A stretch of DNA of 64,000 nt from an uncultured Micavibrio sp. GTDB lineage: Bacteria; Pseudomonadota; Alphaproteobacteria; Micavibrionales; UBA1664. Of this stretch, positions 1,625-46,689 are shown in pieces; within the stretch, counting starts at the first letter, position 1, and each line of letters starts with the position of its first letter. The stretch lies in contig CAZHEE010000003.1 in the NCBI GenBank assembly GCA_964531715.1, forward strand, positions 34,989 to 98,988, in the 5' to 3' direction. The translations under genes were made by a program, and so were the position numbers. The notes under the pieces are model-generated. The model ran no database searches. It had not been told where the DNA came from and worked only from the letters and a program-made list of their open reading frames with translations.

Positions 1625-1909
1625 TTTTATGGTTATGCACAGCGTGAAAAGGCGCGTTTCCGCCTGTAAGGGGATAAATAAAAAAATTTTATCCTCAAGG
1701 GGAAATCAGCATACTGTGATGACGAATCAGGAGAAATTAAAATTGTATGTTTTCACAAGAGGAAAATATTCAAAAAGTGTGATTTAAATCTCTCATATTT
1801 TCGGGAAGGATGCCTGAGTCCTTTTTAGTGTTAGTGGGGAAGAACATTAAGAGAAAGCAGGCACCCTACCGGAAAATATGATTGAAAATTAATGTAGCGC
1901 AAATTAAGT

Positions 1910-3012: not shown

Positions 3013-3099
3013 GGGCGTGTGGCGGAATTGGTAGACGCGGCGGACTCAAAATCCGCTGTCAGTAATGACTTGGGAGTTCGAGTCTCCCCACGCCCACCA
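3013..3099 (+). tRNA. tRNA-Leu (anticodon CAA), CCA encoded
   Basis: Manual cloverleaf. Acceptor GGGCGTG pairs with CACGCCC. Anticodon stem GCGGA/TCCGC with loop CTCAAAA. Long variable arm. T arm GGGAG-TTCGAGT-CTCCC. Discriminator A followed by CCA. Confidence 0.9.
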
Positions 3100-3627: not shown

Positions 3628-6484
3628 ATGTCTGATGATGAGAATAAGGATATTTATCTGGTCGATGGCTCGGCTTACATTTTCCGTGCCTATCATGCTT
3701 TACCGCCTTTAACCAATAAGAATGGTGTTGTTATTAACGCTGTGCTTGGCTTTACTAACATGATGGTTAAGTTATTGCGCGAGATGAAGGCCCCCTATAT
3801 CGCCGTGATATTTGACGCCACGCGCAAGAATTTCCGCAATGATATCTATGATCAGTATAAGGTCAACCGCGATGATCCACCCGAGGATCTCGTTCCCCAA
3901 TTCCAACTAATTAGAGATTGCGTGACAGCTTTTGGAATGGAGCCGATTGAGATGGATGGGTTTGAGGCGGATGACCTTATCGCCACATATGCCCGTATTG
4001 CGACCGAACAAGGACGTAAAGTCACGATTGTCTCATCCGATAAAGACCTGATGCAGCTTATCAACGACACTGTCACAATGTATGACCCGATGAAGGGAAA
4101 AATGCTGGGCATTGCGGACGTGCAAGAAAAATTCGGCGTTTCGCCTGATAAAGTCGTTGATGTGCAGGCGTTGGCAGGGGATGCGATTGATAATATTCCG
4201 GGTGTACCTGGTATTGGGATTAAGACCGCCGCGCAACTGATTGAGGAATATGGTGACCTTGAAAGCCTTCTTTCGCGTGCCGAAGAAATCAAGCAACCGA
4301 AACGCCGTGAAACACTTATCAATCATGCCGAGGATGCACGTATTTCAATGAAGCTTGTGTCATTGGATGCGCAAGTTGATGTGCCGTATGACCTGAATGA
4401 TTTGGCCGTGCATGATACAAATACGGAAACACTGATTGCTTTTTTGGAAGAGCATGGGCTCAATTCTGTTCTTAAACGGCTTGGGCATGATGCACCGAGC
4501 CAGACAAGCAAACAAGACGCGCCCCAAAATGATTTTCCACCAATTGTGGATAATAAATATACGCTTATTCAAGACGTGAAAACGCTTGAAAAATGGCTGG
4601 CGCGGGCAAGCGAAACAGGCATATTATCCTTTGATACCGAAACAACGGCTTTGACCCCTGCCAAGGCAGACTTAGTCGGGATTTCGATTGCGAGCGAAGT
4701 CGGTAAGGCTGCCTATATTCCGTTTGCCCATAAAAGCGGCGAAGTCGATTTGCTTGGCGATGGCGGTGAAGAGATTCGGCAAATTGAGATGAGGCATGCA
4801 CTCTTGCTCCTCAAGCCTATCCTTGAAAATCCGGCCATTATTAAGATTGCACAAAATGCAAAATATGATGTTCAAGTTTTGGAGGGGGCTTATTCTTCCT
4901 TGTCATCCCCGCCCCCGAGCGGGGACCCGAGGGGAGAGGCCCCCGCTCAAGGCGGGGGTGACAATAGTATAAATATCTATCCCATAGACGACACCGATCG
5001 AGGTCGCGCCCTGCGACGACACCATGCTCCTCTCCTACACGCTTGAGGCAGGCCTACACGGGCATGGCATGGATGAGCTGTCCGAGTTGTATTTTAATCA
5101 CAAACCAGTCCCCTTTAAAGAAGTTGCAGGAACAGGAAAATCGCAGGTAACTTTTGATTATGTGAGCCTTGATAAGGCACTCGATTACGCTGCGGAGGAT
5201 GCGGATATAACCTTGCGCTTATGGCATATTTTACGCGAAAAACTCAATCAAACGCGCGGTGTGATTAGCGTTTATGAGCAAATGGAGCGTCCGCTTGTGC
5301 CCGTCATGGTGCGGATGGAGGCAAAAGGTATTATGGTTGACCGCGCATCATTGCGTGACATGAGCAATCAATTTGCAACAAAGCTTGCAACGCTTGAGGC
5401 GGATGTTCATGCTGAAGCTGGCTCGCCCTTTAATATCGGTTCACCTAAGCAAGTGGGACAGGTGTTGTTTGATCAAATGGGCTTACAAGGGGGTAAGAAA
5501 ACCAAAACGGGGGATTGGTCAACCAATGTTTCGATTTTGGAAGATTTGGCGGTGAGTAATGCTATTGTCCGTAAAATCCTCGATTATCGTGGTTTGTCAA
5601 AGCTGAAATCCACTTACACAGATGCGTTACAGGATCAAATTATCCCTGACACAGGGCGAGTCCATACATCCTTTTCGATGGCTGGAACGTCAACAGGGCG
5701 GCTGGCCTCTAGCGACCCTAACCTGCAAAATATTCCGATTAGGACAGAAGAAGGGCGCAAAATTCGGACGGCCTTTATCGCGCCTGAGGGCAAAAGCCTT
5801 GTTTCAATTGATTATTCCCAAGTTGAATTACGCCTTGTTGCCGCGATGGCGGATATTCCAAGGCTCAAACAAGCCTTCATAGACGGGCATGACATTCACG
5901 CGATTACGGCAAGCGAGGTGTTTGGCGTGCCGCTCGACAAAATGGATGGCGAAACACGGCGCAAGGCCAAGGCGATTAATTTCGGTATTGTCTATGGGAT
6001 TAGCGGTTACGGCCTCGGGCGGCAACTCGGGATTGAGGCAGGCGAAGCGGGCGAGTATATCAAGCTTTACTTCAATCGCTTTCCCGAGCTTGCACAATAT
6101 ATGGACGAAACCAAGGCGATCGCGCATGAACAAGGCTATGTTGAAACCTTATTCGGGCGCAAATGCTGGATTAAAGGGATTAAGGATAAGAATTATTCCA
6201 TCCGTTCAGGTGCGGAAAGGGCGGCGATTAATGCGCCGATTCAAGGGACAGCCGCCGATATTATTAAGCAAGCAATGATTAAAATTGACCGCGCAATTTT
6301 GGATGGAGAGATTGAGGCGGCAATGTTGCTGCAGGTTCATGATGAACTGATTTTCGAAATTGATGATGATAAGATTGAGAGTGAGTCGGCAAAGATTAAA
6401 ACCATCATGGAAAATATAATTGACCTTGATGTTCCTCTCATTGCCGATGCCGGCTCCGGCAAAAACTGGGATGATGCGCATTAA
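3628..6484 (+). CDS. polA: DNA polymerase I; reading frame broken between 4996 and 5023 (ORF-track pieces 3628..5046 and 5024..6484)
   Basis: 5'-nuclease N-terminus (YLVDGSAYIFRAYHALPPL), 3'-5' exonuclease region (LSFDTETTAL, AQNAKYD) and polymerase motifs (DYSQVELRL, RRKAKAINFGIVYG, QVHDELIFE). Frame 1 ends at 5046 and frame 2 continues from 5024. Confidence 0.92.
4881..4966. repeat. GC-rich palindromic element inserted in frame within polA
   Basis: Hairpin arms 4901-4924 and 4940-4963 form a 13-bp outer and an 8-bp inner helix. The element encodes EGAYSSLSSPPPSGDPRGEAPAQGGGDNS between the conserved AQNAKYDVQVL and INIYPIDDT. It is far more GC-rich than the surrounding gene. Confidence 0.7.
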
Positions 6485-6604
6485 ACCCTTCTCCCTCGGG
6501 AGAAGGTGCTGAGCATCGCGAAGCGGATGAGGGGTATAAAAACCAAATAGATTAAGCAACCCCTCACCCTAACCCTCTCCCCAGGGAGAGGGAACTAAGC
6601 GGTA
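6485..6604. repeat. composite GC-rich REP-like element filling the polA / 6605-6937 intergenic space
   Basis: Hairpins CCCTTCTCCCTCGGGAGAAGG (6486-6506) and CCCTCTCCCCAGGGAGAGGG (6573-6592), plus GAGGGGT (6529-6535) pairing with ACCCCTC (6559-6565). It shares the same core modules (CCCCTCACCC and CCCTCTCCCC..GGGGAGAGGG) as the element inside mtaB. Confidence 0.7.
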
Positions 6605-6937
6605 TTAATATTTCTCAGATATATAAACATCGCAGGCACTGTCGGCGGCCATGACCGCGATATGCGTGTTATGAAATGTTTTATGCCCGCCGATTGCAAA
6701 ATCATAATATAGCCCTGCAGGGAAATAATGGTCACTCGCGCTCGCGGTGACGTTTGATCCGCCGAAAGCGATATAGACAGGGCCGGTTGTGTAAAGACTG
6801 ACCACATGGGTTTCATTATTGAATGCAGTTGCGTTTCTGGATGAGGACAGTGTCGCGCTGATAGAATGCGCACCATTCGGGCGTAATCTTAAGGCCTGTA
6901 TAGCATTATCGTCATTATCGCGTGGTAATGTTGTCAT
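6605..6937 (-). CDS. hypothetical 110-aa protein, Ser/Thr/Ala-rich, probably beta-rich
   Basis: Clean ORF between repeat elements. No family recognised. Confidence 0.45.
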   Translation of the reverse strand: MTTLPRDNDDNAIQALRLRPNGAHSISATLSSSRNATAFNNETHVVSLYTTGPVYIAFGGSNVTASASDHYFPAGLYYDFAIGGHKTFHNTHIAVMAADSACDVYISEKY

Positions 6938-6979
6938 GGGTTTCTCCTGTAAAAATAAAAAAGATTTGGAAATAAAAAA

Positions 6980-7012
6980 CCCGCTTTCTCGGATAAGAAA
7001 AGCGGGCGCATT
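6980..7012 (-). terminator. intrinsic terminator signature on the minus strand with no upstream minus-strand gene
   Basis: CCCGCTTT..AAAGCGGG stem (6980-7006). The minus strand has GTTTTTTATTT after the stem, whereas the plus strand has an A-run before it and no U-tract after it. Confidence 0.45.
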
Positions 7013-7079
7013 TATGGCGTCAATAAAATCATAGTGTTCTATTTTTGTTCCAAAGTCAAGTGGGAATCTGATAGTATCC

Positions 7080-7121
7080 CGTCATTGCCTGAATCTCGAC
7101 AGAGATTCTAAGGCAATCCAG
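7080..7121. repeat. hairpin repeat of the CGTCATT...AATCCAG family
   Basis: CGTCATTGCCT-loop-AGGCAATCCAG. Confidence 0.65.
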
Positions 7122-7142
7122 TTCATGGCTTTATATCATTTC

Positions 7143-7186
7143 TAGATTCCCTTAGAATTTTATAAATCAAATTCAGGGAATGACGA
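7143..7186. repeat. hairpin repeat of the same family, in opposite orientation
   Basis: TAGATTCCCT...AGGGAATGACGAG. This is the inverted partner of 7080-7121, giving a BIME-like pair. Confidence 0.6.
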
Positions 7187-7204
7187 GTATTTTTAAACTA
7201 TGCT

Positions 7205-10200
7205 ATGCTCCCAACTAATATGACATCATTTTACGATTTAAAATTTCAGGATGAAAATGACAATGTTCAACATTTGCTCAGTGAAATTCAAGCCGCGAAG
7301 CTGAACGAAACTGAGATTGAACAACATGCCCATGTGATGGTTGAGGCGATGCGTAAAAGCCGTGCCGACCTGAAAGGCTTTAACGCGTTGATCCAAACTT
7401 ATAACCTGACTTCCGATGAGGGGTTGGCTCTCATGACCTTGGCAGAGGCTTTGCTTAGAATCCCTGACCCTGCAACCGCGAATGCGTTGATCAGTGATAA
7501 GTTATCCGATGGGGATTGGGCGGAATTATTTAATCAGGCGCAGGATATGACAGGGCGATTTTCAGGCTTTGGCCTGACCCTCTCGCAAAAAATGATGGAT
7601 ACGATGCTGGGTAAGGTCGGCATGCCTTTCATCCGCAAGGCCTGTATTGAGGCAATGCAGTTGATGGGAAAAACCTTTGTTTTAGGACGTGATATTGATG
7701 AAGCGATGAAGGCCGCGAAAGACGGGCGAGCCAAGGGCTATATCTATAATTATGACATGCTTGGTGAGGGTGCGCGAACATTTTCTGATGCCGATTTTTA
7801 TTACGAAAGTTACCGCCAAGCGGTTCAGGCCGTGGGCGAAGCGGTTCAATCAAACGCGCTTGATGCCCCTTATGCGCAAGGCGGTGTCTCGGTCAAACTG
7901 AGCGCGCTTTACCCGCGTTATGACTACGCGCATGAGAACGAAGCCTTGGCATTTCTAATCAAACGGCTGCTTACCCTATGCGAGTTGGCGGCAGGCTATA
8001 ACATTACGCTGACCATTGATGCGGAGGAATGCGATCGGCTTGCCATTTCTCTTAAAGTGATTGAAGCCGTGCTTCAAAATCCGATTGTCAAAAACTGGAA
8101 GGGGTTTGGTCTGGCAATACAAGCCTATCAAAAAAGGGCATATACCCTGATTGATAAAGTGATTGAATGGACAAAAATATATGAGTGCCGTCTGCATGTT
8201 CGGCTTGTGAAGGGTGCCTATTGGGATACGGAAATCAAACATGCGCAGGTTGAGGGTTATGAAGGCTATCCTGTTTTCACACGCAAGGACAATACGGATT
8301 TATCCTACCTCGCCTGCGCTTATAAGTTACTGCAAAACAGGGATGCACTCTATCCTTTATTCGGGACGCATAACGCGCATAGCGTTGCCGCAATTATTAA
8401 CATGGCGGGCGCGGATAAGGGCGGCTTCATGTTTCAGCGGCTGCATGGTATGGGCGTTCAGTTGTATGACCAAATTATCGCGCAAGACATCCCTGTCGGT
8501 GTTTATGCCCCTGTCGGTACGCATAAATATCTGCTTGCCTATCTCGTGCGGCGGTTGCTTGAAAATGGCGCGAACTCATCCTTCGTAAACCAGATTTATG
8601 ATTTGAAGATCCCGATTGATGAGCTTATCCAAAGTCCAATTCAAACAATCATGGCGCGTGAAGAGCAAGGGCAGTCGCACACCCATGAAAAAATTCCGCT
8701 TCCTGCCGATATTTACAGCAATCGCAAAAATGCAAAAGGCTATGACTTAAGTGAAGATGCGCCTTATCACAGGCTTGCCCGCGCGATTGAAAGTTATGGC
8801 GAACGGAATTATCAGGCGCATTCGATCATAAATGGTGAAAGCGTGCAAAAAGGCGCATTATATGAGATTAAAAGCCCGTCCAATCAACAGGATATTATCG
8901 GGCGCGGCAGTAATGCCGATGAAGCTCTTATCAATCAGACATATCAATCTGTCTCGCAAGCCTTTTATTCTTGGCGGGACAGACCGATTGAGGATCGTGC
9001 AATTATTCTCGAAAATATAGCAGATGCTTATGAGAAAAACGGCGATGAGATTATTGCTCTGCTCATAAGGGAGGCAGGAAAAACCATTCCCGATGCTGTC
9101 GCTGAACTCCGTGAAGCGGTTGATTTTTGTCGCTACTACGCGGTTCAGGCACGGCTTACTTTGGGTAAGACAGAAATGGAAGGCCCAACGGGGGAGCGCA
9201 ATATTTTATACCATGAAGGGCGCGGCGTATTCGTCTGTATTTCGCCATGGAATTTTCCTTTTGCAATTTTTACCGGGCAAATTGTCGCGGCACTGGTCAG
9301 TGGGAATTGCGTGATTGCAAAACCGGCGGAGCAGACACCTGCCATTGCAACCCTCGCGGTTCAACTCATGATAAAGGCAGGTTTGCCAAGGGATGTTATT
9401 GCCCTGCTACAGGGCGATGGCGCGATTGGTGAGACAATCATCAATCATAACCAAGTTGCAGGGGTGGCCTTCACTGGCTCAACCCAAGTGGCTAAAATAA
9501 TACAACGCCAACTCGCCGCGAAAGAGGGTGCAATCCTGCCGCTCATTGCCGAGACAGGCGGGCTGAATGCGATGATTGTGGATAGCACCGCTCTGCCTGA
9601 GCAGGTCACGGATGATGTTATCAATTCCGCCTTTGGCTCGGCAGGGCAACGATGTTCGGCTTTACGGATATTATGCCTGCAAGATGATGTGGCGGATGAG
9701 ATGATCACGATGATTAAGGGCGCAATCGCGTGTTTGATTGTTGGTGACCCTGCCTATCTTTCAACGGATGTCGGACCGATTATCGATGCCGAAGCCAAGA
9801 CTAATTTAGAGGTTTATCTCGAAACACTCAATATTGCGGATAGTGGAATGACCTTCGCGCCGATAGATGAGCGATTGGGATCTTATGGGCATTTCTTCCA
9901 ACCCGTCATGATCGAAATGGATTCGATTGAATACATTAAGCAAGAGGCTTTCGGACCGATTTTGCATGTTTTGCGCTATAAACAAGGCGAGCTTGATAGT
10001 TTGATTGGGGCGATTAATGCAAAAGGCTATGGGCTAACCTTTGGATTGCATAGCCGCATCCATAGGCGACAGGATATGATTATCCGCAAAATCAATGCAG
10101 GGAATATTTATATCAATCGCGGGCAGACTGGCGCGGTTGTGGGTGTTCAACCCTTTGGCGGTCGTGGACTTTCAGGGACAGGTCCAAAGGCAGGCGGTCC

Positions 10201-12558: not shown

Positions 12559-12588
12559 CTGGATCCCAGCTTTCGCGGGGAAGTCATG
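12559..12588. repeat. degenerate member of the TGGAT(T/C)CC...GTCAT hairpin repeat family
   Basis: CTGGATCCCAGCTTTCGCGGGGAAGTCATG. Confidence 0.4.
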
Positions 12589-12731
12589 TAATGACCATCC
12601 AATCAGGAAGGCCAAACCAAATTAGCCCCAGTGAGCGTATTCGCCGACTTGGGGGTACCGTTAAGCACTGAAATTATTCCAGTTCTTCATGAATTTGATT
12701 GTGTTATAATTCTTTTGGAGAGGTTTTGTCA

Positions 12732-29579: not shown

Positions 29580-30233
29580 TTACTGACTCACCCAAAGCAC
29601 GCGTGCGATCCAAACCACCTGTTCAGGCTCGAAAACCAAATCATCATGCGTAGGATTTAAAGACTGAAGCTCTATTTTCGTATTCGTGCGGCGTTTGAGT
29701 TGCTTCGCCATGACTTGCCCATCTCTTGTCTTGACAATCACGCGGTCACCACGGCGTATGCCTGAAGAGGGTGAAACGACCAGAATATCCCCATCACGAT
29801 AGAGTGGCTCCATCGAATCACCGCTCACCTCAAGGGCGTAATTCGTATCATCTTTCGGCGTGAAGCCGGGCAACTCAACAAAATCCCACCCTTCCCCTTG
29901 AGGAAATCCTGAATCGGTGAAATAGCCTTGCGCCCCTGCCTGCACACATCCGATAACAGGAATCGCCTTGGCAGAGCGTGAAGTCGTATTAATTTCCGTG
30001 GTTTGAATTTGGATGAATGTCATAAATTCACTCATCGTGATATTGGTCACGGCAAGGATTTTTGATACGGATTCGGTGGATGGCCATCGCGGTTTACCTT
30101 CAGGGCTCATCCGTTTGCTTTTATTAAACGAGGTGGGGTCAAGCCCTGCTTTCCGCGCCAAGCCTGAAGTTGAAAAACCCGCGCTATCGGCCAGCTTATC
30201 AATCGCGGCCCATATATCTTGATGAGAAAACAT
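29580..30233 (-). CDS. CI/LexA-like transcriptional repressor (XRE-type HTH plus S24 self-cleaving peptidase domain)
   Basis: N-terminal HTH region (FSTSGLARKAGLDPTSFNKSKR). C-terminal S24 catalytic Ser motif (GDSMEPLYRDGDILVV) and Lys (VMAKQLKRR). The N-terminus is not the canonical LexA winged helix. Confidence 0.85.
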   Translation of the reverse strand: MFSHQDIWAAIDKLADSAGFSTSGLARKAGLDPTSFNKSKRMSPEGKPRWPSTESVSKILAVTNITMSEFMTFIQIQTTEINTTSRSAKAIPVIGCVQAGAQGYFTDSGFPQGEGWDFVELPGFTPKDDTNYALEVSGDSMEPLYRDGDILVVSPSSGIRRGDRVIVKTRDGQVMAKQLKRRTNTKIELQSLNPTHDDLVFEPEQVVWIARVLWVSQ

Positions 30234-30268
30234 AGGATAATAATCCCATACTCCGCCCGTAAAAGATA

Positions 30269-30286
30269 TAGGAATATAGTCCTTAA
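30269..30286. promoter_or_regulatory. candidate operator, copy 1 (TAGGAATATAGTCCTTAA), in the repressor gene leader
   Basis: An identical 18-mer occurs at 30807-30824. It contains the imperfect palindrome AGGA-N6-TCCT. It lies 12 nt downstream (minus sense) of a perfect TATAAT at 30304-30299. Confidence 0.55.
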
Positions 30287-30329
30287 CTAAATGACGTCAT
30301 TATATAGCTTGTTCTTGTAATCTTAAAAA

Positions 30330-30344
30330 GAACCACAGATGAAC
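30330..30344. promoter_or_regulatory. GAAC-N7-GAAC (GTTC-N7-GTTC on the repressor gene strand), the alphaproteobacterial LexA-box pattern
   Basis: GAACCACAGATGAAC. Caveat: it sits inside ACCACAGATGAACAC, which resembles a common repeat motif. Confidence 0.3.
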
Positions 30345-30455
30345 ACAAATATAAAAACTGTCATCTCGACCAAGCGTAGCGCGCGGAAGGATCTGAATAT
30401 TTTAACGCGAAGATAAGAAGTTTAAGGGAAGTAGACACGAAGATTTTCAAAAAAT

Positions 30456-30682
30456 CCGTTATTGCATGGCTTGACCATGCAATCCAAAAAATAAAACGCA
30501 AAGTCACGCAAAGTTCTTATTCGTCATTACACGGCTGGACCGTGTAATCCAGCTTAGTATTTTCTGGATTGCACGTATTCATAAATGAAACGTGCAATGA
30601 CGGATATTTTAAAGCACCTCCATGTTCTCTGTGCTTTCTGTGGTAAAAAGCAATGGATTACGGCCTTCGCCGTAATGACGAG
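30456..30682. repeat. cluster of four hairpin repeats of the CGTCATT-stem-loop-stem-AATCCAG family
   Basis: CCGTTATTGCATGG-CTTGA-CCATGCAATCCAAA (30456-30486); CGTCATTACACGG-CTGGA-CCGTGTAATCCAG (30522-30552); inverted copies CTGGATTGCACG...CGTGCAATGACGG (30565-30603) and TGGATTACGGC-CTTC-GCCGTAATGACGAG (30654-30682). Confidence 0.75.
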
Positions 30683-30806
30683 CAAAAACTTAGTGCCCTC
30701 AGTGTTTCAAATGACTATAGATTACACAGTCCTTTAATTATAAACCCCACAACTGGTGCGGGGTTGCGATGAAATAATATCCATAAGTAACCTATCTCTA
30801 ATATGG

Positions 30807-30824
30807 TAGGAATATAGTCCTTAA
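30807..30824. promoter_or_regulatory. candidate operator, copy 2, immediately upstream of the -35 of the phage-derived operon
   Basis: TAGGAATATAGTCCTTAA, identical to 30269-30286. Confidence 0.55.
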
Positions 30825-30831
30825 ATAATGC

Positions 30832-30889
30832 TTGACGCATGCTTTAATCCATGGTTTATATTAGAACATAATAAGAACAAGTAAAGAAC
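30832..30889 (+). promoter_or_regulatory. predicted promoter plus a triple GAAC-N7 array in front of the phage-derived operon
   Basis: TTGACG (30832-30837), 17 nt, TTTATA (30855-30860), then GAAC-ATAATAA-GAAC-AAGTAAA-GAAC (30864-30889). RBS GAAAGAGG lies before the ATG at 30904. Confidence 0.5.
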
Positions 30890-30903
30890 AAAAAGAAAGA
30901 GGC

Positions 30904-31308
30904 ATGATTATGAGGGATGGTATTACATTATTTGATAACGCGGAAGAGGCTTGGTTCTGGTTCATCAATGCCACAACAGCGCGAGAAAGCGGTGCAAAAA
31001 TTCGCGCCAATGAAGGGCTTTATAAACGCCCGTGTGAGCCATCCGATATCATGAAGATACTTGAGCGGCTTCACCGCCATCGCCGTCTTGATATGCATCA
31101 TTTCCGCGTTCTCAAACATTATGGCCTACGCATGATTGCACCTGATATCACTCGCGCCCGTGAGGTTTTGGCCGCCCGACTTTGGAATGAAGCGATGGAT
31201 ATCTTAAGCGATGTTTTTATCTCAAAAGGCATAATTGAGCGTTCTTTCGGGGCAGAGATTATTGACTTTCCGATTCAAAATCACGCAATGGAGGCGCAAG
31301 CATGGTAG
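30904..31308 (+). CDS. hypothetical protein, first gene of the phage-derived operon (possible DNA-binding protein)
   Basis: ORF with RBS. Contains AEEAWFWFINA..RPCEPSDIMKILERLHRHRRLDMHHFRVLKHYG. No family assigned with confidence. Confidence 0.55.
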   Translation: MIMRDGITLFDNAEEAWFWFINATTARESGAKIRANEGLYKRPCEPSDIMKILERLHRHRRLDMHHFRVLKHYGLRMIAPDITRAREVLAARLWNEAMDILSDVFISKGIIERSFGAEIIDFPIQNHAMEAQAW

Positions 31309-31718
31309 AGCGCCCCTTACTGACCCCTGAGACGGACGGATTATCGCCGCAAACTATTTGGATTGTGTTTTCGAATGATACGGATATCCGCCCGCTCAAA
31401 ATCCTGAAAAAAGGCTTTCGTCATTGTTTCGTGATATTGCAACAGGATGCGCGATGGATGCTGATTGACCCGCGATGCGATATGACGGAGGTGAAGCTCC
31501 TCCCCCATCCCGTGCATTTTAACTTTCCACGCTATTTTCAACAGCAAGGCAAAATTGTCCTGAAAGTACCGCGGCAAGCAACGCCGCGTAAGGTTGCGCC
31601 GCTTTTCCCGATGTCCTGCGTGGAAACGGTGAAAAGGATGATCGGTCTGCACCGCCGTTTCATTCTGACCCCGCATCAGCTTTATAAATATCTTACACAC
31701 TCTTCAATGAAAGGATAA
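31302..31718 (+). CDS. hypothetical protein (translationally coupled to the upstream gene)
   Basis: ATGGTAG start/stop overlap with the upstream gene. No family recognised. Confidence 0.5.
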   Translation: MVERPLLTPETDGLSPQTIWIVFSNDTDIRPLKILKKGFRHCFVILQQDARWMLIDPRCDMTEVKLLPHPVHFNFPRYFQQQGKIVLKVPRQATPRKVAPLFPMSCVETVKRMIGLHRRFILTPHQLYKYLTHSSMKG

Positions 31719-31724
31719 AATCCC

Positions 31725-32033
31725 ATGGGTTCGCTTTTCTCACCCCCAACGCCCAGTTATAACCCCGTCACCTATCGACCGCCAGTGACACAAGTGCAAA
31801 GCACAAATACAGGGGGTAACAGTATGACTATTCCTGACAGTGGTAATAGTGGCAATACGCTTTCGCAACCGCAACCTGATACGAGTGGAACAAACACTAT
31901 GGATGAACAAATTCGTAATGTCATTCAAAGGGCACAGCGTGGACGTAATTCGCTGATACAAACGAGCTATCGCGGTGTTTTGACCGATGTGACGTCGCTT
32001 GCCCCTCAACGTAAAAATCTTTTAGGGGAGTAA
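31725..32033 (+). CDS. small Pro/Thr/Asn/Ser-rich protein with a basic C-terminus
   Basis: It sits directly before the portal gene, as the small internal virion proteins do in T7-like phages. This is a positional inference only. Confidence 0.45.
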   Translation: MGSLFSPPTPSYNPVTYRPPVTQVQSTNTGGNSMTIPDSGNSGNTLSQPQPDTSGTNTMDEQIRNVIQRAQRGRNSLIQTSYRGVLTDVTSLAPQRKNLLGE

Positions 32034-32035
32034 TC

Positions 32036-33544
32036 ATGACAGAGACAAATATTTTAACGGACTATGCAGAGGCAAAATCACGCCGTAATGCGTGGGAGGC
32101 ACTCTGGAAAGATTGCTATAACTATGCCCTGCCTCAACAAGAGTCTTTCGGGCTTTATGGCTCGGGGCAGTCGAAAACCGCGCATATTTATGATGGCACC
32201 GCGATGGATGCGGTTGAACATCTGGCCGCGAGCTTGCTTGGCAATCTCACACCGCCATGGTCGCAGTGGTTCGGGTTTTCGCCCGGACCTGAAATGACGG
32301 CGAATGATGCCGCGCTCCTTGCCCCTGCCTTGGAAAAGGCGGCAATCCTTGTGCAATCTCATTTAGACCGTTCGAATTTCACAACGGAAATGCATCAGGC
32401 CTTCCTCGATTTGGTGACAGGCGGCACAGGCACATTATTATTTGAAGAAGGTATGACAGGCGATTTCTCCGCCTTCCGTTTTAAAGCAATTCCTCTTTCT
32501 CATGTCGCCTTTCATGAAGGCGCAAGGACAGGGCGGCTGGACAATATTTATCGTGAAACCGCAATGACTTTGGCAGAATTGCAAACGCGCTTCCCCGATA
32601 TTGAATTACCGATGAAAATTGTGCAACAAGGCACGAAAGATTCTCAAGAACGCTTTGACGTTTTAGAAACTGTACAGCCCGATAATCTCGTCTACCGCTA
32701 TCAGGCTTATTTGATGACAGGCGAAAGTGAGCCGTTATTGCTTGGCAATGGTATTTTCAAAGGCTCGCCTTTTATTGCTTTTCGCTGGATGAAATCGGCA
32801 GGGGAAATTTATGGGCGAAGCCCCGTGATGAAGGCTCTGCCCGATATAAAGACCGCGAACAAAGTGGTCGAACTTATCCTTAAAAATGCCTCGATTGCTG
32901 CAAGCGGGATTTGGCAGGCCGATGATGACGGGGTGATTAACCCTGCGAATATTGAGCTGACCCCCGGGACGATTATCCCGAAAGCCGTTGGGTCAAAGGG
33001 TTTAACACCGCTTCAAATGCCGTCCAATTTCGATGTTTCGCAAATTGTATTGGAAGATTTGCGCGCGCGCATTCGCCACTCTCTATTGGTCGACAGGCTC
33101 GGCATGGTCGGGCAACGGCAAATGACGGCAACGGAAGTCCTCGAACGCTCGGCAGAGATGGCGTTGCTCCTCGGGGCAACTTATGGGCGGTTGCAGTCGG
33201 AGCTGTTAACGCCGCTCCTTCAACGGGCTTATACTATATTACGCAGGCGTGGCGAGGTTCCCGATATTGATATTGACGGGCGGTTGGTTGCGATTGATTA
33301 CCGCTCACCACTCGCCCTTGGGCAGCGGCAGAACAACGTTCAAAATCTTATTTACTGGATGAACACAACGCTGTCCATGGGGGGTGAAGCAACCGAGGCT
33401 ATTGATTTGCCGGCCACTGCGCGGCATTTAGGGCGCGCGCTTGGCGTACCGAGTGATCTTATTCGTGATGAGCAAGCTCTGAGTGCGGTGACCGCACCGC
33501 TTGATGAAAATTTACAACCAAACCAACCGACTGAAAAGGAGTAA
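32036..33544 (+). CDS. T7-type head-to-tail connector (portal) protein
   Basis: Compared from memory with T7 gp8: ours YGRSPVMKALPDIKTANKVVELILKNASIAASGIW vs T7 YGRSYIEEYLGDLRSLENLQEAIVKMSMISSKVIG. Also ours MTATEVLERSAEMALLLGATYGRLQSELLTPLLQRAYTIL vs T7 VTAEEIRYVASELEDTLGGVYSILSQELQLPLVRVLLKQL. About 500 aa. Confidence 0.85.
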   Translation: MTETNILTDYAEAKSRRNAWEALWKDCYNYALPQQESFGLYGSGQSKTAHIYDGTAMDAVEHLAASLLGNLTPPWSQWFGFSPGPEMTANDAALLAPALEKAAILVQSHLDRSNFTTEMHQAFLDLVTGGTGTLLFEEGMTGDFSAFRFKAIPLSHVAFHEGARTGRLDNIYRETAMTLAELQTRFPDIELPMKIVQQGTKDSQERFDVLETVQPDNLVYRYQAYLMTGESEPLLLGNGIFKGSPFIAFRWMKSAGEIYGRSPVMKALPDIKTANKVVELILKNASIAASGIWQADDDGVINPANIELTPGTIIPKAVGSKGLTPLQMPSNFDVSQIVLEDLRARIRHSLLVDRLGMVGQRQMTATEVLERSAEMALLLGATYGRLQSELLTPLLQRAYTILRRRGEVPDIDIDGRLVAIDYRSPLALGQRQNNVQNLIYWMNTTLSMGGEATEAIDLPATARHLGRALGVPSDLIRDEQALSAVTAPLDENLQPNQPTEKE

Positions 33545-33549
33545 TAACT

Positions 33550-34266
33550 ATGACTGATACAAATTTATTAAATGACCAGCCAGGCAGTGCAAAACCTGCC
33601 GAGGGTATTCCCGCCAAATTCTGGGATAGCGAGAAAGGTGAGGTGCGCGTTGATGCTCTCCTCAAATCCTATCTTGAGCTTGAAAAGCGGATGGCGAATT
33701 CTTTGCCTGAACCGACAGATGAGGAAACACGCGCCCGATTTTTAAGGGCGGCAGGTGTGCCTGCAACGCCTGATGAGTACAGCGTGACAGTCAAAGATGC
33801 GCTATTTGAACCTGATGTGGAGCTAAACCGCCGTTTGCATGAGAAAGGCTTTTCGTCCGATCAGGTTCAGGAAGTTTATGACCTCGCCGTGGATCACATG
33901 GTGCCGCTTATTCTTGATTTAACGGCCGAATTTCAGGCAGAGCGTGAGATTGAACGCCTAGTGACATTCTTTGGCGGGGAAGACCAGTGGCGTGAGGCTT
34001 CACGTCAAATGTTGGCTTTTGGAAAGAAAAACTTGCCGGCCACTGCCCTGCAAGGCATGAGCGCATCTTACGAAGGGATCATGGCGCTCCATAAAATGAT
34101 GCAGTCGGAAGAGCCACAAACTATTACCGCACGAACAAAGGGTGTCTCCTCCAACGCAGAAAAAGATTTACAATCCATGATGAATGACCCGCGTTACTGG
34201 CGCGATAAAGACCCGTCATACATCGCGAAAGTCACCGAAGGCTTTAAGAATCTTTATGCTGAATAA
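33550..34266 (+). CDS. T7 gp9-like capsid assembly (scaffolding) protein
   Basis: Position directly after the portal gene and acidic composition. The C-terminus KDLQSMMNDPRYWRDKDPSYIAKVTEGF resembles T7 gp9 SEMIKAMSDPRYRTDANYRRQVEQKV. Confidence 0.7.
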   Translation: MTDTNLLNDQPGSAKPAEGIPAKFWDSEKGEVRVDALLKSYLELEKRMANSLPEPTDEETRARFLRAAGVPATPDEYSVTVKDALFEPDVELNRRLHEKGFSSDQVQEVYDLAVDHMVPLILDLTAEFQAEREIERLVTFFGGEDQWREASRQMLAFGKKNLPATALQGMSASYEGIMALHKMMQSEEPQTITARTKGVSSNAEKDLQSMMNDPRYWRDKDPSYIAKVTEGFKNLYAE

Positions 34267-42301: not shown

Positions 42302-42344
42302 GCGGCAATCCATACGGTCTCTCCAGCATCGTATGGATTGCCGC
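42302..42344. repeat. perfect 15-bp-stem hairpin carrying the GCGGCAATCCATAC motif
   Basis: GCGGCAATCCATACG-13 nt-CGTATGGATTGCCGC. The same GCGGCAATCCATAC string occurs inside hisS at 59387-59400. Confidence 0.7.
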
Positions 42345-44723: not shown

Positions 44724-45650
44724 ATGGATAAGCCCGAAACACTAAGTCTTTACGAATTTTTTCAACAATTTCCGAATGAGGAATCAGCAAGACAATACTT
44801 TGAAACAAAGCGTTGGGGTGACACACCGCATTGTGCTCATTGCGGTTCTGTTGAAGTATCAGAATGTAAAGATCTCAAGCCAATGCCATATCGTTGTAAA
44901 GCTTGCCGTAAACATTTTAGCGTTCGTACTGGCACAGTATTGGCGGAATCACGCTTGCCATTACACAAATGGTTAATGGCTATCTATATGCTTACAACGG
45001 CTCGTAAGGGCTTACCATCCACACAAATGGCAAAAGAATTGGGCGTTACTCAAAAAACAGCATGGTTTTTAGCGCAAAGAATCCGTGAAACTTGGACGAA
45101 TAATAAGGACAATAACAAAGGCAATCACATTCAAGTTGATGAAACATATGTAGGCGGAAAAGAAAGCAACAAACACGCATCTAAAAAATTGCGTCAAGGA
45201 CGTGGTTCTATTGGCAAGACAGCCGTTATCGGTTCAATTAATGAAAACTGCAAAGTAAATGCAAAGGTGACACAGGATGTTAAACGTCAATCATTACATG
45301 GCTTTGTATCTGATAGCGCGAATAAGGGCGCAACGGTTGTAACTGATAACTTTCCTGCATATCGTGGTTTAAATAACCGTGGTTACGCTCACAAAGTTGT
45401 AAATCACTCCGTAGGCGAATACATTCGCAATAATGCACATACAAACGGCATTGAGAGCTTTTGGGCTTTATTGAAACGTGGTTACTATGGTGTTTATCAT
45501 TACATGAGTGCAAAGCACCTAAACAGATACGTTAATGAATTTTCGTTCCGCCACAATACAGCACAAATTGGCACTATGGACTTCATCGGAATGACAATCG
45601 AGAGAATGAACAACAAACGACTAACATACAAGGAATTGATAAATGGCTAA
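44724..45650 (+). CDS. IS1595-family (ISXO2-like) DDE transposase with an N-terminal zinc ribbon
   Basis: CAHCGS...YRCKACRKHFSVRTGT zinc ribbon, HTH (STQMAKELGVTQKTAWFL), QVDETYVGGKE, TDNFPAYRGL, and HTNGIESFWALLKRGYYGVYHYMSAKHLNRYVNEFSFRHN. Confidence 0.9.
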   Translation: MDKPETLSLYEFFQQFPNEESARQYFETKRWGDTPHCAHCGSVEVSECKDLKPMPYRCKACRKHFSVRTGTVLAESRLPLHKWLMAIYMLTTARKGLPSTQMAKELGVTQKTAWFLAQRIRETWTNNKDNNKGNHIQVDETYVGGKESNKHASKKLRQGRGSIGKTAVIGSINENCKVNAKVTQDVKRQSLHGFVSDSANKGATVVTDNFPAYRGLNNRGYAHKVVNHSVGEYIRNNAHTNGIESFWALLKRGYYGVYHYMSAKHLNRYVNEFSFRHNTAQIGTMDFIGMTIERMNNKRLTYKELING

Positions 45651-46689
45651 AAAAGATGGAATTGAACCTATTGACGACGATTTTGATAACGTTGTTGAAG
45701 CGGTAGTAACACCAGAGAAAGGCTTAAAGGAAATCACCTCTAAAGCTAGCAAAATAAAGGCTTTAGCACCAAAATCAGGCAGTAAGGAAATCAGCTCACA
45801 AGCTAGCCTAAATTTAGGCATCGATGTTGAGCGAGAAGTTAATGGAATAGGCATGGGTGTTCTAGGTGATGGGACGCCTTACCTAAACCAACGTGGTCTA
45901 GCGGCTTTATGTGGTGTTCAAAACGCTCACATAGGAACTATTAGTTCACAATGGAATGAAGAGCCGTTAAAACCTCGAATCGCCTCAATTAAAAAGGTGT
46001 TAGAAAAAGCAGGATATTTTACTAGTTCAGCGCATATTGAAATTGAGCATAAAGGAATTACGCATTTTTGTTACCCAGCAGAAGTTTGTTTAGCAATTCT
46101 TGAATATTACTCCTTTGATGCGGGGGCAAATTGCCAACCTCAGGCAAGAGATAACTATAGAATTTTGGCTGGCACACAGTTACGCGAAATGATTTATAGC
46201 CAAGTTGGCTATGACCCAACTGGCCGCTATAAAGACCGCTTTGAAAAATGGCACGAAAGAATTGAGTTAAATCATCAATCTGCTCCAAAGGGCTTTTTCT
46301 CCGTATTCAACGAAGCGCACACAATAATCTATGAAATGATCCAAGCAGGTGCCGACATTGGCGAAAAAACAATCGTTGATATATCTATAGGAAAACATTG
46401 GGGACCGTATTGGGATAAAAATGGTTTAGCCACTCAATATGGGGCAAGAATTAAATACCCGCATAGATACCCAGACTCGCATCCGCAGGCAAAAAGCAAT
46501 CCGCAAGAGGCTTGGTGCTATCCTTTGGCAGCTCTAGGGCATTATAGGGAGTGGTTGCAAAACACTTACATTGAGCAAGGAAAATTTGCGAAATATATTG
46601 ATGGCAAGGTTAAGAAAAAAGAATTACCGCCATCTGTGGCGCAATTAGCTGTTGCGGCAGTAGAGCAAAATTTAATCGAGGGGTCTTAA
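45643..46689 (+). CDS. IS passenger protein; tentative P63C/Bro-like phage-type DNA-binding protein
   Basis: Overlaps the transposase stop by 8 nt. GVLGDGTPYLNQRGLAALCGV resembles the GVLSDGTRVLTQRG pattern I recall from P63C-domain proteins. This assignment is from memory only. Confidence 0.6.
   Translation: MAKKDGIEPIDDDFDNVVEAVVTPEKGLKEITSKASKIKALAPKSGSKEISSQASLNLGIDVEREVNGIGMGVLGDGTPYLNQRGLAALCGVQNAHIGTISSQWNEEPLKPRIASIKKVLEKAGYFTSSAHIEIEHKGITHFCYPAEVCLAILEYYSFDAGANCQPQARDNYRILAGTQLREMIYSQVGYDPTGRYKDRFEKWHERIELNHQSAPKGFFSVFNEAHTIIYEMIQAGADIGEKTIVDISIGKHWGPYWDKNGLATQYGARIKYPHRYPDSHPQAKSNPQEAWCYPLAALGHYREWLQNTYIEQGKFAKYIDGKVKKKELPPSVAQLAVAAVEQNLIEGS

What the first reader, a model, noticed from the sequence alone, without database searches (positions are those of the whole stretch)
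4987..5023. polA frame is broken by a 28-nt GC-rich segment flanked by 9-nt direct repeats, and removing it restores a perfect Pol I sequence
Frame 1 reads ...NSINIYPIDDT and then runs into nonsense. Frame 2 reads ..PIEVAPCDDTMLLSYTLEAG. GACGACACC occurs at 4987-4995 and again at 5015-5023, as part of a 15-nt imperfect repeat CCCnnnGACGACACC with a period of 28. Deleting 4996-5023 (GATCGAGGTCGCGCCCTGCGACGACACC) joins ...YPIDDT directly to MLLSYTLEAG in frame, which is the conserved Pol I exonuclease-domain sequence. The extra copy is GC-rich and encodes a variant of the same peptide (IEVAPCDDT vs INIYPIDDT). I see four explanations. (a) Assembly or consensus artefact that merged two alleles. 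(b) A real 28-bp insertion or duplication that makes polA a pseudogene or split gene. (c) A small mobile GC-rich insert with target duplication. (d) Least likely but most interesting: translational bypassing between matched take-off and landing codons, as in T4 gene 60 and the yeast mitochondrial byp elements, which are also short GC-rich inserts in AT-rich genes.
Basis: seen in the sequence. Interest (0 to 1): 0.7.

Follow-up and report, generated by a model that had tools for sequence, protein, structure and literature searches.

The report
Stray polA fragment breaks polA frame
The 28 extra bases that break this DNA polymerase I gene are a second, differently spelled copy of the neighbouring nine codons; another public assembly of the same bacterium lacks them and has an intact gene, so this is an ordinary assembly or strain-level difference, not a ribosome-jumping signal.

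Summary
polA is split at 4996-5023 by 28 GC-rich nt flanked by GACGACACC repeats, and deleting them gives a 942-aa ORF.

Three results decide what it is:
- A second public assembly of the same population (JGI co-assembly contig, 172 kb) is identical to the window over ~48 kb except for this 28-nt indel and one T/A difference 36 nt upstream. Its polA is intact at 942 aa. The window matches the NCBI version.
- The 28-mer is real polA coding DNA. It encodes IEVAPCDDT in the downstream frame, a motif found exactly in other alphaproteobacterial PolAs (23/28 nt identical to one). It is not a mobile element.
- Bypass signals are missing. There is no stop or rare codon after the take-off codon, no significant stem-loop, and no conservation.

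So two versions of one 9-codon segment lie in tandem, out of register. Either this is a real alternative haplotype (which I slightly favour) or two alleles were merged during assembly. Only reads can decide.

It is a TGTC-tagged REP dimer inserted in frame, adding 25 aa. REP insertions of this kind, including in Pol I, are already described.

Interest is low.

The parts
3628..5046 (+). polA 5' ORF (472 aa). It holds the 5'-nuclease domains and the first half of the 3'-5' exonuclease domain (Exo I FDTET, Exo II NAKYD). From 4996 it runs into a 16-codon out-of-frame tail, DRGRALRRHHAPLLHA, ending at TGA 5044-5046.
   Evidence: Pfam PF02739, PF01367, and PF01612 positions 1-94 of 173. Identical to NCBI-sourced protein P0125.
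4901..4963 (.). TGTC-tagged (CGTC-type) REP dimer: TGTCAT-CCCCGC-CCCCGA-GCGGGG-ACCCGAGGGGAGAGGC-CCCCGC-TCAAG-GCGGGG-GTGACA. It is read through in frame. Together with 12 flanking nt (about 4894-4968) it adds 25 aa between the Exo II motif and the DTML strand.
   Evidence: Inverted repeat. RNA fold -48.1 kcal/mol, z -5.9, 0 of 200 shuffles as stable. Termini, length and layout match more than 119 copies in diverse bacteria. Covariance model 47 bits. The insert is absent from all 30 closest PolAs. Klenow alignment. Family description in PMC3733652.
4959..4959 (+). Single-base difference between the two assemblies: T in the window, A in the JGI contig. It is synonymous (GGT/GGA). T makes the hairpin stem pair perfectly and matches the family consensus (TGACA).
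4969..4995 (+). AT-rich version of the 9-codon segment: ATA AAT ATC TAT CCC ATA GAC GAC ACC (INIYPIDDT). It is in frame with the upstream ORF. It is the only version present in the intact JGI allele.
   Evidence: Codon usage is atypical for this genome (1.8th percentile of 6-codon windows).
4996..5023 (+). The 28 extra nt: G ATC GAG GTC GCG CCC TGC GAC GAC ACC. This is a GC-rich second version of the same segment (IEVAPCDDT), in frame with the downstream ORF. It is absent from the JGI contig.
   Evidence: PolA-likeness. 23/28 nt identical to the orthologous site of a distant alphaproteobacterial polA, L131. Single copy.
4987..4995 (+). First GACGACACC (Asp-Asp-Thr codons of the AT-rich version). 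This is the left copy of the 9-nt direct repeat. A deletion between the two copies gives the intact allele.
5015..5023 (+). Second GACGACACC (Asp-Asp-Thr codons of the GC-rich version). An independent per-sample contig (L134) ends inside it, at 5018.
5024..6484 (+). polA 3' ORF (486 aa). It holds the rest of the 3'-5' exonuclease domain (Exo III YAAED) and the complete polymerase domain (motifs A, B, C). No Shine-Dalgarno sequence precedes ATG 5024.

Best explanation
**What it is.** The 28 nt are a second version of the nine polA codons just upstream. The two versions lie in tandem and out of register.
- Version 1 (AT-rich, INIYPIDDT) follows an in-frame REP-dimer hairpin and is in frame with the 5' part of the gene.
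- Version 2 (GC-rich, IEVAPCDDT) is in frame with the 3' part.
- Having both shifts the frame by +1 and splits polA.

**Status.** This state is not fixed. Another assembly of the same microbial-mat population has only version 1 and an intact, motif-complete 942-aa polA.

**Most likely mechanism (inferred).** Two polA alleles met at this site, one of them carrying the REP dimer. The right-hand joint formed 28 nt out of register, leaving both versions. Loss of one unit by slippage or recombination between the 9-nt GACGACACC repeats gives the intact allele. The reverse path is also possible: a short foreign polA fragment was captured, anchored by the conserved DDTMLLSY sequence. I slightly favour the view that the joint exists in real DNA of part of the population, which would make it a frameshifted polA haplotype, over the view that the assembler created it.

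**What it is not.** No recoding is involved. Cells with this allele would make a 472-aa 5'-nuclease fragment and at most a poorly initiated polymerase fragment.

**Shown:** the anatomy, the polA origin of the 28-mer, the heterogeneity between assemblies, and the absence of bypass signals.
**Inferred:** recombination as the cause, its direction, and whether it happened in cells or in software.
For: **Heterogeneity**
- JGI contig Ga0450804_4121791 matches the window over 1-25415 and 29765-52233 with only two differences: T/A at 4959 and the 28-nt indel.
- Its polA is called as 942 aa.
- The protein cluster holds the 942-aa form from JGI only and the 472-aa form from NCBI only, on contigs of 172,170 and 172,074 bp.
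- A third, per-sample assembly breaks inside the repeat at 5018.

**polA origin of the 28-mer**
- IEVAPC scores 19.4 bits on the PolA column profile. None of 200,000 random 18-mers reach that, and only 1 of 127,964 window 18-mers does, namely itself.
- The exact peptide HGIEVAPCDDTML occurs in P0055, P0069 and P0073.
- L131 DNA is 23/28 identical. The 28-mer's leading G aligns with the third base of that gene's Gly codon.

**Points favouring real molecules**
- The SNP and indel are 36 nt apart and otherwise nothing differs, which is how one variant bubble behaves.
- The data are 100-bp Illumina reads assembled with a de Bruijn graph assembler (PMC8605020). Such assemblers cannot create junction k-mers that are absent from reads (my inference).
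- The window's T at 4959 is the REP-family consensus state.

**Points on direction**
- The GC copy has ordinary codon usage for this genome (21st percentile). It continues a native run of GC-ending codons.
- The AT copy is atypical (1.8th percentile, two ATA codons).
- The residues flanking the REP are the least clade-typical part of the protein.

**The intact allele looks functional:** all Exo I-III and Pol A-C motifs are present.
Against: - No reads were available, so existence of the junction in real DNA is not shown. How the NCBI contig was assembled is unknown.
- Only one of the two full-length assemblies carries the 28-mer.
- IEVAPC fits a more distant PolA clade (19.3 bits), not this genome's own clade (0.8 bits; Cys is never seen there). 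That is what reads or DNA from another organism would look like.
- The metagenome is a low-coverage co-assembly of 30 samples with many alphaproteobacteria.
- Unrelated polAs can share exact 26-mers with this gene right at the junction (L126).
- A broken polA should be selected against, so a high-frequency haplotype is a priori unlikely.
- The per-sample contig starts 3 nt inside the repeat rather than at the divergence point. Neither model predicts that.
Confidence: 0.5

Rival explanations
1. The merge happened during assembly (a false tandem duplication). The read pool holds two polA versions at this site, either a second strain or another alphaproteobacterium that shares the conserved DDTMLLSY k-mers. 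The pipeline behind the NCBI contig placed the end of one version next to the start of the other. The organism itself has only the intact gene.
For: - The JGI co-assembly of the same project lacks the 28 nt and has an intact 942-aa polA.
- The peptide IEVAPC is typical of a different PolA clade.
- The insert ends exactly where identity to the native gene resumes.
- An unrelated polA shares an exact 26-mer at the junction.
- MAG coverage was low and 30 samples were co-assembled.
- A -48 kcal/mol hairpin 30 nt upstream is the kind of structure that depresses coverage (the link to coverage is my inference).
- A third assembly breaks at the same point.
Against: - De Bruijn graph assemblers need the junction k-mers to be present in at least two reads. 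Neither the native gene nor a foreign polA contains ...GACGACACCGATCGAGG... .
- The linked T/A difference at 4959 would need a second, independent error.
- There are no other differences in ~48 kb, so the two assemblies are not generally noisy.
Confidence: 0.4
2. Programmed translational bypassing. Peptidyl-tRNA-Thr leaves ACC 4993-4995 and re-pairs with ACC 5021-5023, skipping 28 nt. This would resemble T4 gene 60 or the yeast mitochondrial byp elements. The upstream REP hairpin could act like the gene 60 5' stem-loop.
For: - The take-off and landing codons match, as do the two codons before them.
- The gap is GC-rich.
- A very stable hairpin lies about 30 nt upstream.
- Hopping would yield exactly the 942-aa protein encoded by the intact allele.
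Against: - The codon after take-off is GAT, the commonest Asp codon in this genome (496 against 190). The next frame-1 stop is 17 codons away.
- The gap folds no better than shuffles (z -0.6 to -1.1; 30-57 of 200 shuffles fold as well), and the take-off codon is unpaired.
- The gap is absent from the sister assembly and from all 120 homologs inspected.
- The gap is a homologous polA fragment, not a dedicated element.
- The criteria come from PMC7026636.
Confidence: 0.02
3. A small mobile GC-rich element inserted into polA and made a 9-bp target-site duplication.
For: Formally the structure is repeat - 19 nt - repeat, and the insert is GC-rich.
Against: - The 19-nt core encodes the PolA motif IEVAPC in the correct frame and register.
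- It is 17/19 identical to the orthologous site of L131.
- Its ends are not inverted repeats.
- No other copy exists in the window, in 134 fetched loci or in viral contigs.
- The 'duplication' is the conserved DDT codons.
Confidence: 0.01
4. Programmed +1 ribosomal frameshifting within 4988-5043 fuses the two ORFs. The result would be a PolA with a tandem 9-aa duplication.
For: The two ORFs overlap by 59 nt in the +1 relationship. Three CGA codons occur in the frame-1 tail.
Against: - There is no slippery codon whose tRNA could re-pair in +1.
- There is no stop codon or Shine-Dalgarno stimulator of the prfB type.
- The feature is not conserved and is absent from the sister assembly.
Confidence: 0.01

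Closest known systems
CGTC/TGTC-tagged REP dimers, including Rickettsia RPE-4/RPE-6, inserted in frame in protein-coding genes (Di Nocera et al. 2013, PMC3733652; Ogata et al. 2000, from my own knowledge)
   Same: - The hairpin at 4901-4963 has TGTC tags at both ends and two inverted GC-rich mini stem-loops.
- Its total size is like that of the family (63 nt against 60-74).
- The host is an alphaproteobacterium.
- It is read through in frame and adds 25 aa. The paper reports 20-30 aa for intragenic dimers and names DNA polymerase I among 'REP-decorated' repair proteins.
   Different: - The loops are 6 and 5 nt (CCCCGA, TCAAG) where the canonical CGTC-1 loop is 4 nt (GAAA).
- The central spacer is short.
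- A profile built from the family's interiors alone does not match it.
- Only one full copy and one relic occur in 64 kb.
- This applies to the neighbouring hairpin, not to the 28-mer itself.
False tandem duplications from unmerged alleles at assembly joins (known from diploid and mixed-strain assemblies; from my own knowledge)
   Same: - Two divergent versions of the same segment sit head to tail.
- Another assembly of the same material lacks the extra copy.
- The site is next to a hard-to-sequence hairpin and a conserved motif.
   Different: - The duplicated unit is only 28 nt.
- The data are short reads in a de Bruijn graph, where such joins normally need supporting k-mers.
- No gap or run of N marks the join.
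Homology-facilitated illegitimate recombination and short-patch illegitimate recombination of foreign DNA, followed by deletion between short direct repeats (from my own knowledge)
   Same: - One side of the patch is anchored in a highly conserved stretch (GACGACACCATGCTCC...), and the other side is joined without homology.
- The result is a small insertion of homologous but divergent DNA.
- The flanking 9-nt direct repeats offer a simple route to loss of the insertion.
   Different: The event was not observed experimentally here, the donor was not identified, and the direction of the event is unknown.
Programmed translational bypassing: T4 gene 60 and Magnusiomyces mitochondrial byp elements (PMC7026636)
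   Same: A short GC-rich stretch interrupts an ORF between identical codons.
   Different: There is no stop or unreadable codon after take-off, no take-off stem-loop and no conservation. The 'gap' is itself a copy of the coding segment.

Membership tests
Programmed translational bypassing (T4 gene 60 / mitochondrial byps) | Identical take-off and landing codons flanking the gap | tested here: met
   ACC at 4993-4995 and 5021-5023. The whole GAC GAC ACC is repeated. The shared conserved Asp-Asp-Thr codons of two polA versions explain this.
Programmed translational bypassing (T4 gene 60 / mitochondrial byps) | Stop codon (gene 60) or unreadable/hungry codon directly after the take-off codon | tested here: not met
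   The next codon is GAT, the preferred Asp codon (496 GAT against 190 GAC in the window's genes). The first frame-1 stop is TGA at 5044-5046, 17 codons later.
Programmed translational bypassing (T4 gene 60 / mitochondrial byps) | Take-off stem-loop that includes or abuts the take-off codon | tested here: not met
   The best fold is a 7-bp interrupted stem 10 nt downstream, and the take-off codon is unpaired. Energies are -8.4 to -10.3 kcal/mol, z -0.6 to -1.1, and 30-57 of 200 shuffles fold as well.
Programmed translational bypassing (T4 gene 60 / mitochondrial byps) | Nascent-peptide signal that holds the peptidyl-tRNA | not testable with these tools
   No sequence rule exists that could be applied here. 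The preceding peptide is the REP-encoded Pro/Gly/Ser-rich loop.
Programmed translational bypassing (T4 gene 60 / mitochondrial byps) | The gap is maintained in the lineage (conserved in relatives or independent isolates) | tested here: not met
   It is absent from the otherwise identical JGI contig and from all inspected homologs.
Small mobile insert (MITE/IS-like) with target-site duplication | Terminal inverted repeats and several copies in the genome | tested here: not met
   The ends GATCGAGGT and GCAGGGCGC (reverse complement of the right end) are unrelated. It is single copy in the window at up to 3 mismatches. The only near match in 134 loci is an orthologous polA site. There is none in viral contigs.
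Small mobile insert (MITE/IS-like) with target-site duplication | Insert sequence unrelated to the target gene | tested here: not met
   The insert encodes the PolA motif IEVAPC in register (19.4 bits; 0 of 200,000 random 18-mers reach this).
CGTC-tagged REP family, dimer form (applies to the hairpin at 4901-4963) | Terminal CGTC or TGTC tag | tested here: met
   TGTC at 4901-4904 and GACA at 4960-4963. The definition comes from PMC3733652.
CGTC-tagged REP family, dimer form (applies to the hairpin at 4901-4963) | 8-9 bp GC-rich stem beginning with AT, a 4-5 nt loop and a CCA tail | tested here: inconclusive
   - Left unit: ATCCCCGC-CCCCGA-GCGGGGAC-CCG (7 of 8 stem pairs, 6-nt loop, tail CCG).
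- Right unit: CCCCCGC-TCAAG-GCGGGGG (7-bp stem, 5-nt loop).
- Both are close to the canonical form but not identical.
CGTC-tagged REP family, dimer form (applies to the hairpin at 4901-4963) | Two units in inverted orientation forming one long hairpin | tested here: met
   Inverted repeats. Fold of -48.1 kcal/mol, z -5.9. Full-length alignment to the covariance model at 47.4 bits. That score is partly circular because the termini defined the search.
CGTC-tagged REP family, dimer form (applies to the hairpin at 4901-4963) | Sequence similarity beyond the termini | tested here: inconclusive
   A profile of the interiors alone gives 1.2 bits, E = 55. The covariance model does align the inner GCGGGG and CCCCGC blocks.
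CGTC-tagged REP family, dimer form (applies to the hairpin at 4901-4963) | Repeated in the host genome | tested here: inconclusive
   The 64 kb holds one full copy and one relic half-copy at about 12560-12590. The rest of the genome was not available.
Assembly-level false duplication (unmerged alleles) | The tandem copies are homologous but divergent, and an alternative assembly lacks one copy | tested here: met
   17/28 identity, with both copies PolA-like. The JGI contig lacks the second copy.
Assembly-level false duplication (unmerged alleles) | No reads span the junctions of the extra copy | not testable with these tools
   Raw reads (SRP063590) cannot be reached with these tools.

The most novel reading that the evidence does not exclude
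The 28-nt allele is real, and ribosomes hop from ACC 4993 to ACC 5021 often enough to make working Pol I. The -48 kcal/mol REP hairpin re-folding behind the ribosome would take the role of the gene 60 5' stem-loop. That would be the first chromosomal bacterial bypass site. A more modest and more likely novel reading, at roughly 0.15, is that the window holds an intermediate in how transposase-less CGTC REPs enter conserved genes. In that reading a REP-bearing polA patch is imported by recombination with an out-of-register joint. A deletion between the 9-nt repeats then repairs the frame.
Probability: 0.02. Interest if true: 0.85.

Novelty: new member of a known kind. Interest (0 to 1): 0.17.

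Why it matters
It matters mainly as a caution. A feature that looks like a take-off/landing bypass site turns out to be two versions of one coding segment placed side by side, and a second assembly of the same population has the intact gene. Anyone annotating this MAG should not call polA a pseudogene, or a recoded gene, without checking reads.

There are two smaller points of biological interest:
- It adds a clear metagenomic example of a REP dimer tolerated in frame inside the 3'-5' exonuclease domain of Pol I. Di Nocera et al. noted this class of 'REP-decorated' repair proteins.
- If the longer allele is real, the pair of alleles would show an out-of-register recombination joint beside a REP and its repair by deletion between 9-nt repeats. 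That bears on how REPs with no known transposase spread.

Tried and rejected
- **Other copies.** I searched the window for other copies of the 28-mer and the hairpin and found none.
- **Rfam.** The region gave only sub-threshold noise. The whole window gave only tRNA-Leu.
- **Exact look-ups.** Both polA halves and my first PutA start were not on record. This was solved by going through the 101-aa neighbour.
- **Metagenome scan.** A downstream anchor meant to collect all variants returned one unrelated GC-rich polA (L126).
- **PutA and 110-aa gene look-ups for further assemblies.** These found only the JGI contig and one per-sample contig that stops inside the repeat.
- **Second homolog search centred on the junction.** It gave only distant fragments (65% identity or less). 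The tool does not list the window's own cluster.
- **Viral contigs.** No match to the 28-mer.
- **Diversity-generating retroelement idea.** Rejected because 4 of the 10 differences between the copies are T to G, not changes at A positions, and the tract is far too short.
- **Recent tandem duplication followed by divergence.** Rejected because the unit has 11 differences in 28 nt while ~48 kb around it has none.
- **Large-scale chimerism of polA.** Rejected because the N- and C-terminal halves have the same nearest relatives (r = 0.94).
- **Transposon excision footprint.** Rejected because the 19-nt core is not palindromic and is polA-like.
- **GATC at the start of the insert** as a restriction-end clue. 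This is only about 4% unlikely given the 10 equivalent registers, so I did not use it.
- **GC3 and codon-usage tests for which copy is ancestral.** They gave conflicting hints and are reported as unresolved.
Full report
**1. The observation**

- polA is split into ORF 3628..5046 (472 aa) and ORF 5024..6484 (486 aa), in frames that differ by +1.
- GACGACACC occurs at 4987-4995 and again at 5015-5023.
- The segment between and including the second repeat, 4996-5023 (GATCGAGGTCGCGCCCTGCGACGACACC), is 71% GC. The gene is 47.5% GC.
- Removing it gives a single 942-aa ORF.
- Pfam places the break inside the 3'-5' exonuclease domain. PF01612 positions 1-94 lie on the first ORF and positions 113-172 on the second.

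**2.

The 30 closest PolAs are 69-78% identical and 913-933 aa long. They read KYDWQVL-xx-xx-IDVSPIDDTMMLSY. Compared with them the window has 103 extra nt, not 28.

Seventy-five of these are an in-frame insert encoding SSLSSPPPSGDPRGEAPAQGGGDNS. Its core is a 63-nt GC-rich palindrome at 4901-4963 (-48.1 kcal/mol, z -5.9).

A scan of one genome per species with the palindrome's termini returned more than 119 loci in Sphingomonadales, Rhodobacterales, Rhizobiales, Micavibrio, a Rickettsia endosymbiont, Gammaproteobacteria and other phyla. The consensus is TGTC-ATCCCCGC-GAAA-GCGGGGAY-CCA ... TGG-RTCCCCGC-TTTC-GCGGGGAT-GACA.

This matches the 'CGTC-tagged' REPs of Di Nocera et al. 2013. The features they describe:
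- a CGTC or TGTC tag, an 8-9 bp stem starting with AT, a 4-5 nt loop and a CCA tail;
- mostly dimers, and mostly in Alphaproteobacteria, including Micavibrio;
- equivalent to Rickettsia RPE-4/RPE-6;
- no known transposase;
- intragenic copies encoding 20-30 aa, with DNA polymerase I named among the decorated proteins (PMC3733652).

The window copy is a diverged member.
- A covariance model aligns it end to end at 47 bits. That score is partly circular, because the termini defined the search.
- A profile built from interiors alone does not match it.
- A relic half-copy of the canonical form lies at about 12560-12590.
- In Klenow terms the insert sits between the Exo II motif (KYD424) and the DTML strand.

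**3. The 28-mer is polA, not an element**

In the frame of the downstream ORF it reads (G) ATC GAG GTC GCG CCC TGC GAC GAC ACC, which is IEVAPCDDT. The 27 nt before it read ATA AAT ATC TAT CCC ATA GAC GAC ACC, which is INIYPIDDT. The two 28-nt units are 17/28 identical.

I scored both against the column profile of 117 PolA homologs.
- IEVAPC scores 19.4 bits. None of 200,000 composition-matched random 18-mers reach that, and the only one of the window's 127,964 18-mers that does is IEVAPC itself.
- INIYPI scores 11.1 bits (P about 5e-5).
- HGIEVAPCDDTML occurs exactly in three PolAs of about 58-60% identity.
- The DNA of one of them, L131, is 23/28 identical to the 28-mer. The 28-mer's leading G falls on the third base of that gene's Gly codon.

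The '9-nt direct repeat' is therefore the Asp-Asp-Thr codons shared by two versions of the same segment. This removes the mobile-insert reading: there are no inverted termini and no other copy.

**4. The 28-mer is heterogeneous between assemblies**

The window's proteins are held by both NCBI and JGI/IMG. The JGI record is contig Ga0450804_4121791 (172,170 bp) of 3300040801. That is a MEGAHIT co-assembly of 30 brackish microbial-mat metagenomes with 100-bp reads and low MAG coverage (PMC8605020).
- On that contig polA is one 942-aa gene.
- Base-by-base comparison over window 1-25415 and 29765-52233 shows only two differences: T (window) against A (JGI) at 4959, inside the right arm of the REP, and the 28-nt indel.
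- The protein cluster contains the 942-aa form from JGI only and a 472-aa form from NCBI only, the latter on a 172,074-bp contig. The 472-aa protein is identical to the window's first ORF, including its out-of-frame tail.
- So the window is faithful to an NCBI record, and a second assembly of the same population has the intact gene.
- A third, per-sample assembly (L134, sample 3300040788) is 100% identical to window 5018-9179 and ends inside the second GACGACACC. It cannot say which allele that sample has. A contig end within a few bases of the junction is still unlikely by chance, which points to a branch in the read graph at this spot.

The intact allele keeps all catalytic motifs: Exo I-III and polymerase motifs A-C.

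**5. Bypassing and frameshifting**

The criteria come from PMC7026636. Only the matched codons are met.
- The codon after take-off is GAT, this genome's preferred Asp codon.
- The next frame-1 stop is 17 codons away.
- The gap folds no better than shuffled sequence and leaves the take-off codon unpaired.
- The gap is not conserved.
- No slippery site or prfB-like stimulator for +1 frameshifting is present.
- No Shine-Dalgarno sequence precedes ATG 5024.

Cells with this allele would make the 5'-nuclease fragment and little else of Pol I.

**6. How the tandem arose: in cells or in software**

Both readings share the core inference that two polA versions were joined 28 nt out of register.

*For an in-silico merge:*
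- Only one of the two full assemblies has it.
- IEVAPC fits a more distant clade (19.3 bits) and not the genome's own clade (0.8 bits; Cys is never seen there).
- Unrelated polAs share exact 26-mers with this gene at the junction.
- Coverage was low, and a strong hairpin lies 30 nt away.

*For a real haplotype:*
- De Bruijn assemblers cannot create the junction k-mers, which neither version alone contains.
- The linked SNP 36 nt upstream, with no other difference in ~48 kb, is what a single variant bubble looks like.
- The window's T is the REP-family consensus state.

I put a real haplotype at about 0.5 and an assembly artefact at about 0.4.

**7. Direction of the event (unresolved)**

Some tests suggest that the GC version is the old native sequence and that the REP with its AT-rich flanks came in as a patch.
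- The GC copy uses ordinary codons for this genome (21st percentile). It also continues a native run of GC-ending codons.
- The AT copy is atypical (1.8th percentile, two ATA codons).
- The residues flanking the REP are the least clade-typical in the protein, including W415V in the otherwise invariant KYDWQ.

On this view the window allele is the out-of-register intermediate, and the JGI allele is its repair by deletion between the 9-nt repeats.

The clade-atypical Glu and Cys of IEVAPC argue the other way. On that view a foreign polA fragment was captured, anchored on the conserved DDTMLLSY stretch. Nothing available here decides between the two.

**8. Comparison with what is known, and novelty**

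- The hairpin is a new instance of a described phenomenon, a REP-decorated Pol I.
- The 28-mer is either a false tandem duplication or a frameshift allele made by illegitimate recombination, removable by slippage between direct repeats. Both are ordinary kinds.
- It is not a member of the bypassing family, because three defining features were tested and not met.
- It is not a mobile insert.

**9. Verdict**

The exciting interpretations are rejected. Interest is low (0.17). Read mapping of SRP063590 would settle the one open question in an afternoon.

Noticed in passing
window 4901-4963 (insert about 4894-4968): A 63-nt TGTC-tagged REP dimer is read through in frame inside the polA 3'-5' exonuclease domain. 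It adds 25 aa that all close relatives lack, and it folds at -48 kcal/mol.
   Followed up: yes
window 4959: The only other difference from the JGI contig in ~48 kb is T (window) against A (JGI). It is synonymous. T makes the REP stem perfect and matches the family consensus, so the change could be a quasi-palindrome 'correction' in either direction.
   Followed up: partly
window about 12560-12590: Relic right half of a canonical CGTC-1 REP (TGGATCCCAGCTTTCGCGGGGAAGTCA) in the intergenic region upstream of the DAP-epimerase gene. It shows the family has been present in this lineage.
   Followed up: partly
L134 (JGI 3300040788 Ga0450788_132728), end corresponding to window 5018: An independent per-sample contig ends at GACACC|ATGCTC. 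That is 3 nt inside the 9-nt repeat rather than at the point where the two alleles diverge. It hints at a third variant (for example GAT GAC ACC) or at another organism's polA sharing k-mers here.
   Followed up: partly
window 4870-4872 (PolA residue 415): The gene reads KYDVQ where all 29 close relatives, and the distant ones inspected, have KYDWQ. It is one of only 11 departures at 444 clade-invariant positions, and it lies 7 residues before the REP insert.
   Followed up: partly
window 29580-34266: An S24-peptidase/repressor-like gene, several small ORFs, a head-tail connector (PF12236) and a T7-type capsid gene (PF05396) sit directly upstream of ctaA. This looks like a small phage remnant or a gene-transfer-agent-like cluster.
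   Followed up: no
window 44724-46689: An IS1595-family transposase gene overlaps a BstA_C-domain (abortive-infection-like) gene, just upstream of recR.
   Followed up: no
window 1793-1881 and 42302-42344: Two other strong intergenic hairpins. The first is AT-rich (-40 kcal/mol). The second has a 17-bp stem directly after the RNase E gene (-30.6 kcal/mol). Both are weak hits to the REP model (E 0.05-0.2), so they are probably unrelated terminators or other repeat types.
   Followed up: partly
window 3013-3099: tRNA-Leu(CAA). It is the only RNA gene that ARAGORN or Rfam detect in the 64 kb.
   Followed up: yes
L005-L123 (genome-contig hits): Near-identical TGTCATCCCCGCGAAAGCGGGGA... dimers occur not only in Proteobacteria but also in MAGs labelled Acidobacteriota, Gemmatimonas, Planctomycetes (Fimbriiglobus), Omnitrophota, Saccharibacteria and Paceibacterota. 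This is either an unusually wide spread or binning contamination.
   Followed up: no
tool behaviour: The homolog search never returned the window's own PolA cluster (P0124/P0125), even for an identical query. Near-identical sequences from other assemblies may therefore be invisible by that route.
   Followed up: partly
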